Below are positions 39,101 to 45,100 of a stretch of 64,000 nucleotides of DNA, piece after piece. This DNA comes from Saccostrea cucullata (Eukaryota). The stretch spans positions 1-64,000 of the forward strand of contig NW_026923439.1 of NCBI RefSeq assembly GCF_032062105.1, given 5' to 3'. The position numbers were made by a program. Within the stretch, counting starts at the first letter, position 1, and every line of letters begins with the position of its first letter.

Positions 39101-42100
39101 CAAAGATGTTTATCTGAAAATCTGTATACCAATTTTCATGTCAGTATGTGCAACCTCTGCAAAGAAAATGAACCGAAACTGCAAATAATTGGAATTTTTC
39201 TGAGTCCAAGGGACATAACTCTGTCAAAAATGGTGCGATCGTACCCAAAACAGAACTTGACCTAGATATTCATGTGATATATCTGTATATATATATATAT
39301 ATTTGTGCAGCGGTTGCGAAGAAAATGAACGGAAACTAAGTGGACCGACAGACCGACCGACAGACAGCAGCAAAGCAATATGCCCTCCCTTCTTCGAAGG
39401 GGGGCATAAAAATATCGAATCTGTTCAAAAGTTATGACCAATGTTAAAGTTTTTCAAAAGTATGTCAAACTCCATCGTCAATGTTGTTGGAAGGAAGGCC
39501 TTGTCAATGGGATACATAAAAATTCAAAAATTATGTCCAAGATTAAATTTATTAAAAAGATTATCAAACTCAAAGGTCAAGGTCAAAATTATTTATACCT
39601 ATGAAAAGGTCTTATCACAATATAACATGTGAGGTATGAAAGCGGCTAGCACCAATTAACTGTTCAAAAGTTATAGACAAAGTCAATGTTGGGTAAATTT
39701 TTGCAAAATTTGGTCAATTAAAATCTAAGGTCAAGAGGTCAAATATGTTGATACCCAAAGAGAGCCCCACATGGAATATGCTATAGCTCCAACCAATTAA
39801 AACTTACGGGCAATGTTTAAGTTTTTGCATACAAATAGATAAACAGACATACCGACGGACAGGACAAAACTATATACACCAGGAACTTCGATTTCTAGAG
39901 TGTAAAATGTTGTTTCTAAAGATATCCATAGCACATGAATCCTTTGTCCAAAGGTCATAGGGATGGTGGAGGTCAGAAAATTATGACGAGACCAAATTGC
40001 TTGACTCGAAAATAAATATTGTATAAATATTCACATCAAATATTTTATAAGATTTTTCTGACAACATCAAGAACTGCGAACACCTAGTGGCACTTTGTTA
40101 GAACTGTTGAATGTAAACCATATTTTGGGGTATGTACAAGCTTTCTATTATTCTTTTATCATCTCGATGGAGGATTTTTACAATATTTAAAATGGTATAA
40201 ATTTTGTATTTAAATACTTGAAATACCCCGCTAGTTATTTCTTTGTTTAAAAAAGGTGTTTGTTTTATTGCTGCATTGTTAAAATATTAAAATTTGCTTA
40301 TCATGCATTTTATCTTGCAGGAAACTATGTACTTCATAGCCATGATCAATCAAGTACCTAGACAAACCGTTCTATCTGAAATGATATTGTCCTACGGACC
40401 TGGTTTAAATAAAATCCACAAATGTTTCCTTTCTGTATGTATATACGGAAGTAGAAAAATCAAGTCATTCAGCTGGTATAGAATAAACATTTTCTTTTGT
40501 TAAATCGAATTAACAGAAATATAATTAAAATAAAACCATGACTGAAGAATGTTGTTCAATGTTGGACAAAGCAGTATTCTGGATATACAAACAAACTGAA
40601 ACAATTATCATACATACAAATATCAGAATCTGCGAGTTGATAATTATTAAAACAACATTCAAGTATGAACATGCAATTATTGCAGGTTTTTTTTTCATCC
40701 TTTGACTTATCTTGGCCATTGGCGTTGTTATCAAGTTTATGAAATTTATCAGATCATATCTTAAAAATTGAAAATCTTTAATAAATATTGTTAAAAACAA
40801 TTTTTAAACATCCGGAAGATTAAATAATCCAGAAATTGTACAGAGGATGTCAGATCAATGTTTATACCATCTAACACTTTATATCCAACACATCATTCGG
40901 CTTCCATAAAAACAGTCCTAAATATCACTTCATTTCGATTAATCCATGGGACCTCTGTTATTGAAGTATTTAACGTTTCTTCAATTTGTCTATTTTATGT
41001 CCTCCTTTTAATCCTACATAGACACCGACAGCAAACCCTGCTAGAAATGTGAACGTAACGATCCAAAACAACGCCTTCCCTTTAACCTCTATCTCCAGAC
41101 CATCTTCTCCAATCTCAATGTCCAAGTCTGACATTTCTATGTCACGGGTCTAGTCTCACGAGTGACGATCAATGTAACAACATGCAACCACTTGACTAAA
41201 CGTGACTATAAGTGATACCGGTTAAGGTGATTGCTTATGTTTGTAAAGGGGAACAAGGCAGTGGGTTACAAAGCTAACATCGAGAAATGCTATATTTTAT
41301 CATGTAGAGCTAAGAAGTATATAATTACTATAGGACTTAGGTAAACATAATGTTATAGATCGAGATATTAAGGTCCGCAGGTACGTATAGCAGGCCCCTA
41401 TACATATAGGAACTCCCCTGATGAGTTTACCCGATATATATACTAATCAAAAAGAATTTTTTAAAAAGCCTTTTACGCTTCTTTTGAATTTTAAATGTCT
41501 AATATAAAAAAAGTCCTTGTTTTACCCTGGGAGATCCAAAACAAGTGTTAGTTCAAAAAGTAAAATAGGAGGTGTACAGTAGCATTATGTAATAAAGAAT
41601 CTGTTAAAGTACATGTATGTATATCATTCAATTTTATTCAGTGGTATAGGAGGAGTTGCGGATAAGAGACGCTAGCATGGGTACCCCTCAATATTATATA
41701 AATGGTGCCTGTTTTGGAGGGTAACAGTTGAAACTGCCACCCCTCGGAAAACCATTGTCAACCGACGCGTCAGCAGAGGTTGACAATGGTTTTCCGAGGG
41801 GTGGCAAAAATATGTGTTTATTATACAAAAATTAAAAAAGAAAAAAATCGTCGATCATCTTTACGTTCACGTTTAGAAAGCTTTCAAACTCCTCGCTACT
41901 TCTAAAAAGATTTACTGACCTTTTTATTGTTTGTTTGATACTCTAAGAGTCTTTTATCATATAAAGTTTCATTATTTTTGCACTCGCAAGCGCATGATTC
42001 GTCTGTCATTTGTTGTTTTCAAGTACATCGGACGCAAGCTTTTAGTGACGTCAAGTTTATTCCAGTTCTTTCAAACGCGCAACTGACGTTTTGAGAATTC

Positions 42101-45100
42101 TACGGTGAACCGTACGCGCATAATATCCACGCATGTGGCATTACCGTTGTGTTACCCGTTGTCACATGCGTTGTTAAGGCTGAGGGTAATAGAACGGATT
42201 GTTAACTGCGTCTAAACCAATCAGATTTTAGTATTTAACATGAAAGTATAATAAAAGGTCATATTATCTATACTGAACGGTCGGATATACATGTCAATAA
42301 GAGACATAAATAAAATTGACTGACGCAAAAATACTTTTTTGTACCATTTATAAGGACTATGAAAGGGAAATGTGATATCGGCCCGGTTTACTATAACATA
42401 TGTGTTCAAGCATTTTTGTCAAGTAAAATAGATAAATTACATGTAATCTATTTAGACAAGAGACAACCTAGAAAAACACCATTCTGAAACAAAGCACCTA
42501 TGATTGTGGTGAGCTTGACCCTGAGTGGCTGCGCGACACACGTTTGTTGGCTCAGGTGAGCTAAAACAGTATCACTACTGTATATACGGTAACTAAGCGA
42601 AAAAATCACAAGAGTTAAACCAAGTAACTCTTGGTAATAAGGCGAGCAGGTTTATTATTATTTTTTTTTTTTTACAACAAAATCAATGTAGAATGGCGTA
42701 AGTTAGGCCTAACAATAAATTTTCAGTAGGCTTGGTAATAGTCAACTTTTGATTCATCAAAACAATATTAATTTCACCGTAAGTATGCAATCCTCGGTAG
42801 TATAGTGGTAAGTATCCCCGCCTGTCACGCGGGAGACCGGGGTTCGATTCCCCGCCGGGGAGGTAGCATTTTTTTTTTTTATAGGATATATATCTTTTAC
42901 ATTTTTTTGCATTTTCAATCAACCGTTTCATAGTATTTATTTGCAGTAAATCTGATGACGTTTTTTTGTTTTATTATTCAGTGGAAGCATTTCCGGAGAG
43001 AGAGAAGACACGGACAGTATTGGAAGACTTATGTAGATCTGTTTGAAAAGGATATAGTGTTTCTGGCGAAGAAGTGGTAAGTATGGACTCATTTAATTGA
43101 TTCAACGGATATAAAGTGAAATAGTCAAACAATGTTTTGTGTTTACATTGACTTTAAAAAATATTATGAGCCACCAAGTACAGTGTAGCAGGTCATGAGT
43201 ACAAAGTGAAAGTAAGCTGTTGTGAACAAGTTTTGGTAAAATCCACTTGTATTAATCCATTTGACTAAAATTTCATCCCATTCTCCGACAGGGTATGACT
43301 CGATGATCTAAAATGTCTTATAAAATTGTGCCAAATTCCGCAAATTTTGTAGATACATGGTAGGCTTTTACGTCTACTTTCATTTTCGTTTGTGTTTCAC
43401 TTAGGCATGTTAAAACATAATATATCAACATACACTAGTCTTAGTCTCATGTTTTATATTGTAGATCAAAGGACCTGACTTTTCCTAAAGTATGGCCAGA
43501 CTCCGCGAAGTATCTGGCACCACGGCCCTGGTTTTGGCGGGTCTGACGTTTGCCTTGGGGTTCTACCTGGGTTACAAGGCAAAAGCTTATCGCCTTCGAT
43601 ATCTCCATAATAAAAGAGATCGTCTGATGAATAAACTGAACAAAGCAACAGAGGACATTCAGTATACAATGAACAATATTTGACAAATACTCGGTTTAGG
43701 TTGTCTGCAATCTCTTTGATATTTTTTAGGTCATATAGATAGGCCTGTATATTTATTGAAATGTCAGCACATAGGGATTATTGGTAACAGAATTTATGCT
43801 GATATAATTTATTGTACATTTTATATGATATATTTTAACATTTACTTGAATATTGTATATCAAGTAATATACTGTATATAATTGAGATTAAAATTTTCTA
43901 TAATAATCATATCCTGTATCAGCCTGAGACACATATATATAGATCACAAAACAGTAGAATGTGAACCAAAAATATATTGTGTTTTATCATAAGTACAGGC
44001 ATCAGGATCACGAATCAAACTTAAACTTATAATTATTCAAATTTTTAATCGCCTATAAAATATTTATCAATTATAGAATTTATTTTTAAATTCGCACATA
44101 ACACCTCAGTGAAACAATATTGAAAAATAGTTTTATATATTTTGGTTTGCTTGACTTCTACAACATTTTATTATAAAATGAAGAGGCTTACTTTTTTTCA
44201 GTTGCCGATTTCTTTCAGTACCATTTTTTGGCATACAATACTACATTTCCCTTGTATCACTTTACCCTAGTACAAACTAGGGAAGGGGAATGTCATTGAG
44301 CCTTTCAGTGAACATTTTTAATAGTAAAAGTAATGTTGGGGAAAAAAGTGAGAGGGCCAGTGTAATACACTACTGTACATGTATATATACCTTCCCGTAT
44401 TATTAACCCTGGAAGATTTGTAGTTTGTACCTAATCTTCCTTCGAAGTGTACTGGTATTATTTTTAATTACATGTGTATATGACCCCTCTGTACATCAAG
44501 AAAAAGTTCATGCTCATTAATTTTTTTTAAATTAAAAATGTTATTTTATAAAGGTGTAAAAAGTAGTACATGTGCCGAGTTAGCTGCAATAATGTAGCCC
44601 TCTCCAATTTTTTTTAATCTGATGTTTACTCCCATAAAAAAAGAAGAGGGCTACATTTTTGCAGCTAGTATTGAGTTTATTATATCTACATGTATTTCAT
44701 TTATTATAGAGTAAATCAGCGATTTGCACCCGTATGTTCAAAGATCGAGAACTAAGTATTGATGAACTAAGATATCACCGTCATTTAACTAGTGTGAAAA
44801 ATACTATAGTACATGCAAAAAGTGTGTTCAAATATTTAAGAAAGCTTGAATCGATTTCAAATTGAGTAATAATAAACGGAGCCTAATAAACGAAATGCTT
44901 CACTTCATCTTTTTTTATCTGTAAGATCAGTTTAAAGACGATCCTTATATAGCGGAAAAAAAATCTCGTATCGGGAAGTCCTCAGCTTTAAGAGGTATGT
45001 TTTGTGCTTACAATAGTTTTTTTAACTTGCTAGCACCAACAACACAGGACTTCGATCGTAAATGACTTCCGTAATATGGGCATTAAGTGGTGTGAATAGT

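What the first reader, a model, noticed from the sequence alone, without database searches (positions are those of the whole stretch)
40970..43683. Candidate system: divergently transcribed pair of related membrane microproteins flanking a tRNA-Asp gene
Seen: the 54-aa ORF (-) and the MTLN-like ORF (+) point away from each other with start codons about 2.36 kb apart. An intact tRNA-Asp and a palindrome-bearing element lie between them. Knowledge: tRNA genes bound by TFIIIC keep chromatin open and can act as insulators. Inference: a compact microprotein module, either co-regulated or insulated by the tRNA gene, in which the two peptides could hetero-oligomerise through GxxxG faces to tune mitochondrial membranes. 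This may be relevant in a hypoxia-tolerant intertidal animal, but that link is speculative.
Basis: inference. Interest (0 to 1): 0.72.

Follow-up and report, generated by a model that had tools for sequence, protein, structure and literature searches.

The report
Mitoregulin-like gene, tRNA-Asp, unproven small ORF
The region holds a genuine mitoregulin-family microprotein gene with an ordinary tRNA-Asp gene in its 5' part and, on the other strand, a 54-codon membrane-type ORF that looks coding but is not demonstrably related to it, so this is a gene neighbourhood rather than a shown system.

Summary
These are the 54-aa ORF 40970-41134 (-), the 63-aa ORF 43492-43683 (+), tRNA-Asp(GTC) 42791-42862 (+) and a perfect 29-nt inverted repeat at 41735-41806. 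The start codons are 2358 nt apart.

The 63-aa ORF is a member of Pfam Mitoregulin (39.1 bits against a cut-off of 27). [quoted passage not shown] The window's source organism could not be checked.

The 54-aa ORF matches no family. Its codon usage is coding-like (rank 6 of 201 small ORFs, best of its six frames). It is 1 of only 3 of 201 ORFs that combine such codon usage with a membrane-type segment.

"Related" is not supported. The likeness covers 16-19 transmembrane residues and sits at background level.

The tRNA-insulator idea is poorly placed. The most CpG-rich stretch of the window (41.9-42.4 kb, with CRE and CCAAT motifs) lies on the ORF54 side of the tRNA. The tRNA therefore probably sits inside, or at the very 5' edge of, the mitoregulin-like transcription unit.

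No expression or synteny data were available, and no protein-database search could be run for the 54-aa ORF.

The parts
43492..43683 (+). 63-aa mitoregulin-family ORF. It has an N-terminal transmembrane helix (about residues 9-28, with GxxxG at G23-G27) and a basic C-terminal helix.
   Evidence: One search lists the ORF. Pfam PF22002 Mitoregulin, E 6.9e-10, 39.1 bits against a cut-off of 27, residues 14-57 on profile positions 11-54 of 56; 0 of 10 hydrophobic control ORFs hit this model; a single helix over residues 3-62, pLDDT 84.6; codon score rank 14 of 201.
42982..43076 (+). Candidate non-coding 5' exon of the mitoregulin-like gene. It has a polypyrimidine tract plus CAG acceptor and a GTAAGT donor at 43077. 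This is inferred, with no transcript data.
   Evidence: One search gives the acceptor at 42982 with pyrimidine fraction 0.79. The donor GTG|GTAAGT was read. Candidate acceptors before the ATG lie at 43405 or 43465 (read).
42490..42555 (+). Possible upstream 5' exon ending at the best-scoring + strand donor of the interval, CAG|GTGAGC. Its 5' limit is unknown. This is inferred.
   Evidence: In one search the donor at 42556 is the only + strand donor scoring 6 of 7 in 42200-43520.
42791..42862 (+). tRNA-Asp (GTC) gene with internal A and B boxes. A T12 pol III terminator follows at 42869-42880.
   Evidence: ARAGORN. (Rfam RF00005, 60.4 bits against 29). (A box, B box and the downstream T run).
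41901..42400 (.). CpG-rich, promoter-like stretch. It holds the CRE palindrome TGACGTCA at 42046, CCAATCA at 42217, TGACG half-sites at 42084 and 42321, and GCGCAT/CGCATG motifs at 41990, 42116, 42130 and 42165.
   Evidence: In one search it has the highest CpG count of all 300-nt windows (18, tied with 26301). Its observed/expected ratio is 1.5-1.58 against 0.53 for the whole window. In one search the CRE occurs 3 times in the window against 0.40 expected.
41735..41806 (.). Perfect 72-bp palindrome with 29-nt arms and a 14-nt spacer. Its origin is unknown. It lies between the 54-aa ORF and the CpG-rich stretch.
   Evidence: In one search the only matches were generic hairpin hits below gathering score (mir-552, 39.7 bits against 100).
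40970..41134 (-). 54-aa candidate microprotein ORF. It has an acidic N-terminus (residues 1-20), a transmembrane helix with glycine zipper G33xxxG37xxxG41, and a basic 12-residue tail. An ATTAAA signal lies 188 nt downstream at 40782.
   Evidence: One search lists the ORF; codon score rank 6 of 201, and its own frame scores 0.246 against 0.052 or less in the other five; 1 of 3 of 201 ORFs combining coding-like codons with a transmembrane segment; helix over residues 11-52, pLDDT 77.4; no family; poly(A) signal.

Best explanation
This is an ordinary head-to-head gene neighbourhood, not a demonstrated three-part system.

(1) The + strand ORF encodes a true mitoregulin (MTLN) homologue. It is a single-pass microprotein whose N-terminal helix sits in a mitochondrial membrane and whose basic C-terminal helix is exposed. 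By homology to vertebrate Mtln it would act on mitochondrial lipid and respiratory function. The ORF lies in the last exon, after one or two short non-coding 5' exons (inferred).

(2) The tRNA-Asp(GTC) gene is a normal, self-contained pol III gene. It lies either in the first intron of that gene or within about 120 nt upstream of its 5' exon. Its placement needs no functional link to the microproteins.

(3) The 54-codon ORF on the other strand probably (about even odds) encodes an unrelated, tail-anchor-like single-pass microprotein with a glycine-zipper helix.

(4) The CpG-rich CRE/CCAAT stretch at 41.9-42.4 kb between the two genes is the likeliest promoter. It may fire in both directions, which would give co-expression without any tRNA-mediated insulation.

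(5) The 72-bp perfect palindrome is an incidental foldback, probably a transposon remnant, in the intergenic or intronic DNA.

Shown: the family membership of the 63-aa ORF, the tRNA, the palindrome, the compositional signals and the codon statistics.
Inferred: the exon structure, the promoter, translation of the 54-aa ORF, and all localisation and function.
For: Mitoregulin membership:
- Pfam PF22002 gives 39.1 bits against a cut-off of 27, covering profile positions 11-54 of 56.
- 0 of 10 hydrophobic control ORFs from the same window hit the model at E up to 10.
- The model is a single long helix with pLDDT 84.6.
- The C-terminal half, read, has 9 K/R against 3 D/E. This fits the review's description of a hydrophobic N-terminus and a positively charged C-terminus (passage read).

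tRNA:
- It was detected. It has A and B boxes and a T12 terminator.

54-aa ORF as coding:
- Its codon score ranks 6 of 201, above the mitoregulin ORF itself at 14 of 201. Its own frame is the best of six.
- Only 3 of 201 ORFs combine a codon score of 0.19 or more with a hydropathy peak of 1.5 or more. These are this ORF, the mitoregulin ORF and one at 25.7 kb.
- There is a local G+C peak of 0.44.
- It has a purine at -3 and an ATTAAA signal 188 nt downstream.

Promoter-like stretch:
- It has the top CpG count in the window, with observed/expected 1.58 against 0.53 overall.
- The CRE palindrome occurs 3 times in the window against 0.40 expected. The other two sites are at 31832, about 0.95 kb upstream of the p24-family first coding exon, and at 48917.

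tRNA inside the + strand transcription unit:
- The only strong + strand donor (42556) and a strong acceptor (42982) bracket it.
Against: - No transcript, ribosome-profiling, proteomic or cross-species data could be consulted, so every exon, start site and promoter is inferred from motifs only.
It is therefore unknown whether the 54-aa ORF has homologues.
- The codon model was trained on only five open frames of this window, and some antisense or unverified ORFs also score high.
- The 54-aa ORF is the top-scoring of 200 window ORFs against the mitoregulin-like peptide (score 37, next best 34). A whole-sequence shuffle reaches that score in only 17 of 5000 trials. A distant paralogous relationship therefore cannot be excluded.
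- An acceptor-like site lies inside the 54-aa ORF at 41040. Its C-terminal part could belong to another transcript.
- The exon at 42982-43076 could instead be a first exon whose start site lies just downstream of the tRNA. The tRNA would then be promoter-proximal rather than intronic.
Confidence: 0.55

Rival explanations
1. The two ORFs are related paralogous microproteins that form a functional module. They are either co-regulated or insulated from each other by the TFIIIC-bound tRNA gene, and they hetero-oligomerise through GxxxG faces in mitochondrial membranes.
For: - The ORFs are divergent and their start codons are 2358 nt apart.
- Both have GxxxG spacing, and they share an LAG..FAxGxYxGxK pattern.
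- The 54-aa ORF is the best of 200 window ORFs against the mitoregulin-like peptide, and a global shuffle reaches the score in 17 of 5000 trials.
- Only 16 of 201 ORFs carry GxxxG and only 3 of 201 carry GxxxGxxxG.
- The review cites a report that Mtln self-oligomerises (passage read).
- That tRNA genes and TFIIIC sites can act as chromatin boundaries is established knowledge. One search gave titles and abstract starts only, so this rests on recall.
Against: - The 54-aa ORF does not hit the Mitoregulin model at E up to 10.
- The similarity is confined to 16-19 transmembrane residues. A shuffle of the transmembrane residues alone reaches the score in 247 of 5000 trials.
- The in-window tblastn cross-match has E 1.1-1.6 and is not the best non-self hit for either peptide.
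- The mitoregulin-like peptide shows the same grade of transmembrane-motif likeness to an algal complex I subunit (E 0.0068).
- The tRNA lies on the far side of the CpG-rich promoter-like stretch from the 54-aa ORF, bracketed by + strand splice signals. That is not the position of a barrier between two promoters.
- No second genome could be examined for conservation of the arrangement.
Confidence: 0.08
2. The 54-aa ORF is a chance open frame, or part of a non-coding or other transcript. The locus then holds only the mitoregulin-like gene and a tRNA gene.
For: - Small ORFs are abundant: 201 ATG ORFs of 35-120 aa lie in the 64 kb, and 35 of them have a membrane-like hydrophobic stretch.
- No Pfam family matches. 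The best hit is DUF4535 at E 0.28, 11.3 bits against 28.3. 3 of 10 control ORFs give equally weak stray hits, E 0.014-0.16.
- No PDB relative was found; the best E-value is 1.9.
- No strong acceptor lies upstream of its ATG, and an acceptor-like site lies inside it.
Against: - Its codon score ranks 6 of 201 with a clear frame preference, 0.246 against 0.052 or less.
- It is 1 of only 3 of 201 ORFs that combine coding-like codons with a transmembrane segment.
- Its membrane segment is rich in G, A and V, not the I/L/F/N/K-rich type that AT-rich chance ORFs give. Compare 40525-40719 (-).
- It has the orderly layout of acidic head, helix and basic tail.
- It coincides with a G+C peak.
Confidence: 0.35

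Closest known systems
Mitoregulin (MTLN / MOXI / MPM / LEMP; Pfam PF22002), the 56-aa vertebrate mitochondrial microprotein encoded by LINC00116
   Same: - The 63-aa ORF scores above the family's curated cut-off over nearly the whole profile.
- It has the described layout of a hydrophobic N-terminal transmembrane segment and a positively charged C-terminus (passage; sequence).
- It appears to lie in the last exon of a short multi-exon gene with non-coding 5' exons. This is inferred. That the vertebrate gene has an lncRNA-like structure is recalled, not tested here.
   Different: - It is seven residues longer than the 56-aa vertebrate protein.
- It comes from a genome that looks non-vertebrate. 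None of this was verified here. [quoted passage not shown]
- Localisation, partners and function are untested.
STMP1 / DUF4535 (PF15054) and other single-pass mitochondrial microproteins with glycine-rich helices
   Same: The 54-aa ORF has one helix with small-residue (G/A) spacing and is of similar size. Its weak top Pfam hit is DUF4535, residues 27-40 on profile positions 2-15.
   Different: - The score of 11.3 bits is far below the cut-off of 28.3, and E 0.28 is at the level of stray hits in control ORFs.
- That DUF4535 is the STMP1 family is my recollection and comes from no call.
- The 54-aa ORF has a 20-residue acidic N-terminal extension and a tail-anchor-like layout.
tRNA genes / TFIIIC sites as chromatin boundary (insulator) elements
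   Same: A complete tRNA gene with A and B boxes, the TFIIIC-binding elements, lies in the interval between the two ORFs.
   Different: - It is a single gene, not a cluster.
- It lies on the mitoregulin side of the promoter-like CpG stretch, between + strand splice signals.
- Boundary activity was not testable here.
Bidirectional (head-to-head) CpG-rich promoters
   Same: A CpG-rich stretch with CCAAT and CRE motifs lies between two divergently oriented ORFs.
   Different: - The start sites are unknown.
- The ORF start codons are 2.36 kb apart. Untranslated 5' exons and introns on both sides would be needed to bring the start sites within 1 kb. Candidates exist but none is verified.
Complex I accessory subunit MNLL (NDUFB1)
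   Same: The mitoregulin-like peptide aligns to the Polytomella MNLL chain 7ar9_f across the transmembrane motif.
   Different: The match is marginal: E 0.0068 for the whole sequence and 0.066 for the domain. Pfam's best and only above-threshold family is Mitoregulin.

Membership tests
Mitoregulin (Pfam PF22002): 63-aa ORF | Score at or above the curated gathering score of the family model | tested here: met
   39.1 bits against 27, E 6.9e-10, profile positions 11-54 of 56; 0 of 10 hydrophobic control ORFs hit the model.
Mitoregulin (Pfam PF22002): 63-aa ORF | Microprotein of about 56 aa with a hydrophobic N-terminal transmembrane segment and a positively charged C-terminus | tested here: met
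   The ORF is 63 aa. Its hydropathy peak is 1.54. The model is a helix over residues 3-62. Residues 29-63 have 9 K/R against 3 D/E (read). The description is taken from the review passage.
Mitoregulin (Pfam PF22002): 63-aa ORF | Localisation in a mitochondrial membrane and an effect on respiration or lipid metabolism | not testable with these tools
   Needs experiments.
Mitoregulin (Pfam PF22002): 54-aa ORF | Score at or above the curated gathering score of the family model | tested here: not met
   no match to PF22002 at E up to 10. The pairwise likeness is limited to 16-19 transmembrane residues.
DUF4535 (PF15054): 54-aa ORF | Score at or above the curated gathering score | tested here: not met
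   11.3 bits against 28.3, E 0.28.
Eukaryotic tRNA gene (Rfam RF00005) | Cloverleaf above gathering score, internal A and B boxes, and a downstream T-run terminator | tested here: met
   60.4 bits against 29; anticodon GTC; A box at position 8, B box at position 51, T12 from 42869.
tRNA-gene insulator between two pol II genes | The tRNA gene lies between the two promoters it separates | tested here: inconclusive
   The promoter-like CpG/CRE/CCAAT stretch at 41.9-42.4 kb lies on the ORF54 side of the tRNA. A + strand donor at 42556 and an acceptor at 42982 bracket the tRNA. No start-site data were available.
tRNA-gene insulator between two pol II genes | TFIIIC occupancy and measurable barrier or enhancer-blocking activity | not testable with these tools
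   Needs ChIP and reporter assays.
Bidirectional promoter pair | Two opposite-strand start sites less than 1 kb apart in a CpG-rich region | tested here: inconclusive
   The CpG richness and motifs are present. The start sites are unknown. Candidate 5' exons and donors exist on both strands, at 42556 on + and 41919 on -.
Paralogous pair (local inverted duplication) | Sequence similarity beyond composition, at the protein or DNA level | tested here: not met
   no DNA similarity between the two loci; cross-match E 1.1-1.6; transmembrane-only shuffle reaches the score in 247 of 5000 trials.

The most novel reading that the evidence does not exclude
Mitoregulin would be older than vertebrates. In this apparently invertebrate genome it would be paired head-to-head, through one shared CpG-rich CRE/CCAAT promoter, with a previously unrecognised 54-aa tail-anchor-like glycine-zipper microprotein. 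That partner would be either a very diverged mitoregulin paralogue or a dedicated partner. The two would then be co-expressed and would assemble in the same mitochondrial membrane.
Probability: 0.1. Interest if true: 0.6.

Novelty: new member of a known kind. Interest (0 to 1): 0.35.

Why it matters
Mitoregulin is one of the best-studied lncRNA-encoded microproteins. [quoted passage not shown] My full-text searches found 0 papers combining 'mitoregulin' with 'mollus' or 'oyster', and 0 combining 'MTLN', 'microprotein' and 'bilateria'.

If the window is indeed from an invertebrate, a family member above threshold pushes the gene's origin back. It would also offer a simple non-vertebrate model for a protein whose localisation and mechanism are still disputed. 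Automatic genome annotations or the Pfam family's own membership may already contain such sequences, and I could not check that.

The 54-aa ORF would matter only if it is translated. It would then be one more unannotated single-pass microprotein. Its head-to-head position next to mitoregulin would make a co-expression and interaction test worthwhile.

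Tried and rejected
- Complex prediction of the two peptides gave no verdict: score 0.06 against a mark of 0.34, and the controls were not run. I count it neither for nor against binding.
- PDB sequence searches found nothing useful for the 54-aa ORF (best E 1.9). The mitoregulin-like ORF gave only a marginal MNLL hit.
- Structure predictions gave single long helices. I did not run fold searches because a lone helix gives meaningless matches.
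- Rfam with a permissive threshold over 40400-44400 matched the palindrome only to generic hairpin models far below gathering score: mir-552 at 39.7 against 100, and rox1 at 36 against 58. I rejected a known miRNA or other known RNA family.
- The self-BLAST of 40001-44500 against the window found no repeat copies of the palindrome, the tRNA flanks or either ORF. This gives no support for a repeat family or a local duplication. The arms do not extend into the flanks and I saw no target-site duplication when reading.
- I considered a two-exon reading in which an upstream - strand ORF (41902-42009) ends at the donor at 41919 and feeds the 54-aa frame. That upstream frame has a negative codon score of -0.228 and no Pfam hit.
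- I did not use the genome-contig scan. That collection holds only bacteria and archaea and cannot inform an animal locus.

Full report
**What is there**

- A 54-aa ATG ORF lies at 40970-41134 on the - strand and a 63-aa ATG ORF at 43492-43683 on the + strand. They are divergent, with start codons 2358 nt apart.
- Between them lies the only tRNA gene of the window, tRNA-Asp(GTC) at 42791-42862 (+). It was found by ARAGORN and by Rfam RF00005 at 60.4 bits against a gathering score of 29. It has an A box at tRNA position 8, a B box at position 51 and a T12 terminator from 42869.
- A perfect inverted repeat has 29-nt arms at 41735-41763 and 41778-41806 with a 14-nt spacer. It is unique in the window and would fold at -62.7 kcal/mol, z = -11.9.

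**The + strand ORF is a mitoregulin**

- Pfam PF22002 (Mitoregulin) matches residues 14-57 on profile positions 11-54 of 56, with E 6.9e-10 and 39.1 bits against a curated cut-off of 27.
- As a specificity control I scanned 10 of the 34 other hydrophobic small ORFs of the window, choosing those of 53-68 aa. 0 of 10 hit this model at E up to 10.
- The peptide is predicted as one long helix over residues 3-62, with pLDDT 84.6 from a single sequence.
- It has a hydrophobic N-terminal part and a C-terminal half with 9 K/R against 3 D/E (read). This matches the layout the review gives for Mtln (passage read).
- Full-text searches found 0 papers with 'mitoregulin' plus 'mollus' or 'oyster', and 0 with 'MTLN', 'microprotein' and 'bilateria'. 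Seven papers hold 'mitoregulin' and 'invertebrate'. I read passages of the review only.
- I could not verify the organism. The neighbours are a p24/EMP24 gene, NUSAP, a Methyltransf_32 gene and a WD40 gene.

**The 54-aa ORF is a plausible but unproven gene**

Evidence that it is coding:
- A codon log-odds model trained on five long open frames of the window ranks it 6 of 201 ATG ORFs of 35-120 aa. The mitoregulin ORF itself ranks 14 of 201. Its own frame scores 0.246 against 0.052 or less for the other five frames.
- Only 3 of 201 ORFs combine a codon score of 0.19 or more with a hydropathy peak of 1.5 or more. These are this ORF, the mitoregulin ORF and a 72-aa ORF at 25702-25920 (-).
- It coincides with a local G+C peak of 0.44. 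It has G at -3 and an ATTAAA signal 188 nt downstream.
- It has an orderly layout: a 20-residue acidic head, a G/A/V-rich helix carrying G33xxxG37xxxG41, and a 12-residue basic tail. The model is a helix over residues 11-52 with pLDDT 77.4. The layout resembles a tail-anchored membrane protein. That comparison is inference.

Evidence against:
- Small hydrophobic ORFs are common here, 35 of 201.
- No family matches. The best hit is DUF4535 at E 0.28, 11.3 bits against 28.3. 3 of 10 control ORFs give stray hits of E 0.014-0.16.
- No PDB relative was found.
- No strong acceptor precedes the ATG, and an acceptor-like site lies inside the ORF at 41040.
Conservation, the decisive test, stays unchecked.

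**Are the two peptides related? Not shown.**

- BLASTP aligns 16 residues with a 2-residue gap, at 17.7 bits and E 0.004 for one comparison.
- By Smith-Waterman the 54-aa ORF is the best of 200 window ORFs against the mitoregulin-like peptide, but only just (37 against 34). Whole-sequence shuffles reach the score in 17 of 5000 trials. Shuffles of the transmembrane residues alone reach it in 247 of 5000.
- In a six-frame search of the window the cross-match has E 1.1-1.6. For both peptides a different, meaningless locus scores better.
- There is no DNA similarity between the loci.
- The 54-aa ORF does not touch the Mitoregulin model.
- The mitoregulin-like peptide shows the same grade of transmembrane-motif likeness to an algal complex I subunit, MNLL chain 7ar9_f (E 0.0068). 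This kind of G/A-spaced helix recurs among small membrane proteins.
- A very old duplication cannot be excluded, but nothing here requires one.

**Where the tRNA sits**

- The 300-nt windows starting at 41901 and 42001 have the highest CpG count of the whole 64 kb (18, tied with 26301). Their observed/expected ratio is 1.5-1.58 against 0.53 overall.
- This stretch holds the CRE palindrome TGACGTCA at 42046. The window has 3 CRE sites against 0.40 expected, and no shuffle reached 3.
- It also holds CCAATCA at 42217, TGACG half-sites, and five GCGCAT/CGCATG motifs.
- Another CRE, at 31832, lies in the second CpG-rich area, just upstream of the p24 gene's first coding exon at 32780. CpG-plus-CRE therefore looks like a promoter mark in this genome, which is inference.
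- This promoter-like stretch lies between the 54-aa ORF and the tRNA.
- On the + strand, the only donor scoring 6 of 7 in 42200-43520 is CAG|GTGAGC at 42556. A strong acceptor (pyrimidine fraction 0.79, CAG) opens a 95-nt exon at 42982-43076, which ends in GTG|GTAAGT. Candidate acceptors at 43405 or 43465 precede the ATG at 43492.
- The simplest reading is a mitoregulin-like gene with one or two non-coding 5' exons and the tRNA in its first intron. Alternatively the start site lies in the 120 nt between the tRNA terminator and 42982, making the tRNA promoter-proximal.
Co-regulation would then come from the shared CpG stretch. A - strand donor, AAG|GTCAGT at 41919, could end a 5' exon for the 54-aa ORF.
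- All of this is motif-based inference.

**The palindrome**

It matches no Rfam family at gathering score. At a permissive threshold only generic hairpin models appear, far below their cut-offs. It has no further copies in the window, no arm extension and no obvious target-site duplication (read). I take it as an incidental foldback, possibly a transposon remnant, lying in the intergenic DNA or a 5' intron of the - strand gene. This is a weak inference, because no genome-wide repeat census was possible.

**Verdict**

- The best-supported picture is an ordinary neighbourhood. It comprises a true mitoregulin homologue, a standard tRNA-Asp gene in its 5' region, a promoter-like CpG stretch, and a divergent 54-codon ORF with about even odds of being a real, unrelated single-pass microprotein.
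- The proposed module is not supported by anything I could test, and the position of the tRNA argues against the insulator role.
- The most interesting solid point is a mitoregulin family member in what appears to be an invertebrate genome, against the view stated in the review.
- I rate the novelty as a new member of a known kind and the interest as modest.

Noticed in passing
window 25702-25920 (-), with 26201-26600: A 72-aa Cys-rich ORF with a strong hydrophobic segment (hydropathy peak 2.4) and coding-like codon score (0.224). It is the third of only 3 of 201 ORFs with both features. It has no Pfam family; the best hit has E 0.16. One of the most CpG-rich spots of the window lies just upstream on its strand. 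It may be another unannotated microprotein or an exon.
   Followed up: partly
window 45258-46772 (-): A 504-aa uninterrupted open frame with many hydrophobic segments, convergent with the mitoregulin-like gene. It has no Pfam family at E up to 0.01 and no PDB relative at E up to 0.1. It is probably a single-exon multi-pass membrane protein of an undescribed or fast-evolving family.
   Followed up: partly
window 43492-43680 (+) against PDB 7ar9_f: The mitoregulin-like peptide aligns to the Polytomella complex I accessory subunit MNLL across the transmembrane motif (E 0.0068, domain E 0.066). This could be convergence of glycine-spaced helices or a hint of distant kinship between mitoregulin and NDUFB1-type subunits.
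   Followed up: no
window 31832, 42046 and 48917: The full CRE palindrome TGACGTCA occurs 3 times against 0.40 expected. Two of the sites fall in the CpG-richest areas of the window, near the p24 gene's 5' end and between ORF54 and the tRNA. This suggests CRE-bearing CpG-rich promoters in this genome.
   Followed up: partly
window 32780-36069 (+); 16331-20645 (+); 52079-53875 (+); 56031-57211 (+): The neighbouring genes were recognised by Pfam on single open frames. They are a p24/EMP24-GOLD family gene with four apparent coding exons ending at 36069, NUSAP, a Methyltransf_32 gene and a WD40 beta-propeller gene. All are ordinary animal housekeeping genes.
   Followed up: partly
window 42124-42176: A 17-nt imperfect inverted repeat (82% complementary; I11) inside the CpG-rich stretch places CACGCATGTG and CACATGCG in opposite orientation. 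It may be a paired transcription-factor site.
   Followed up: no
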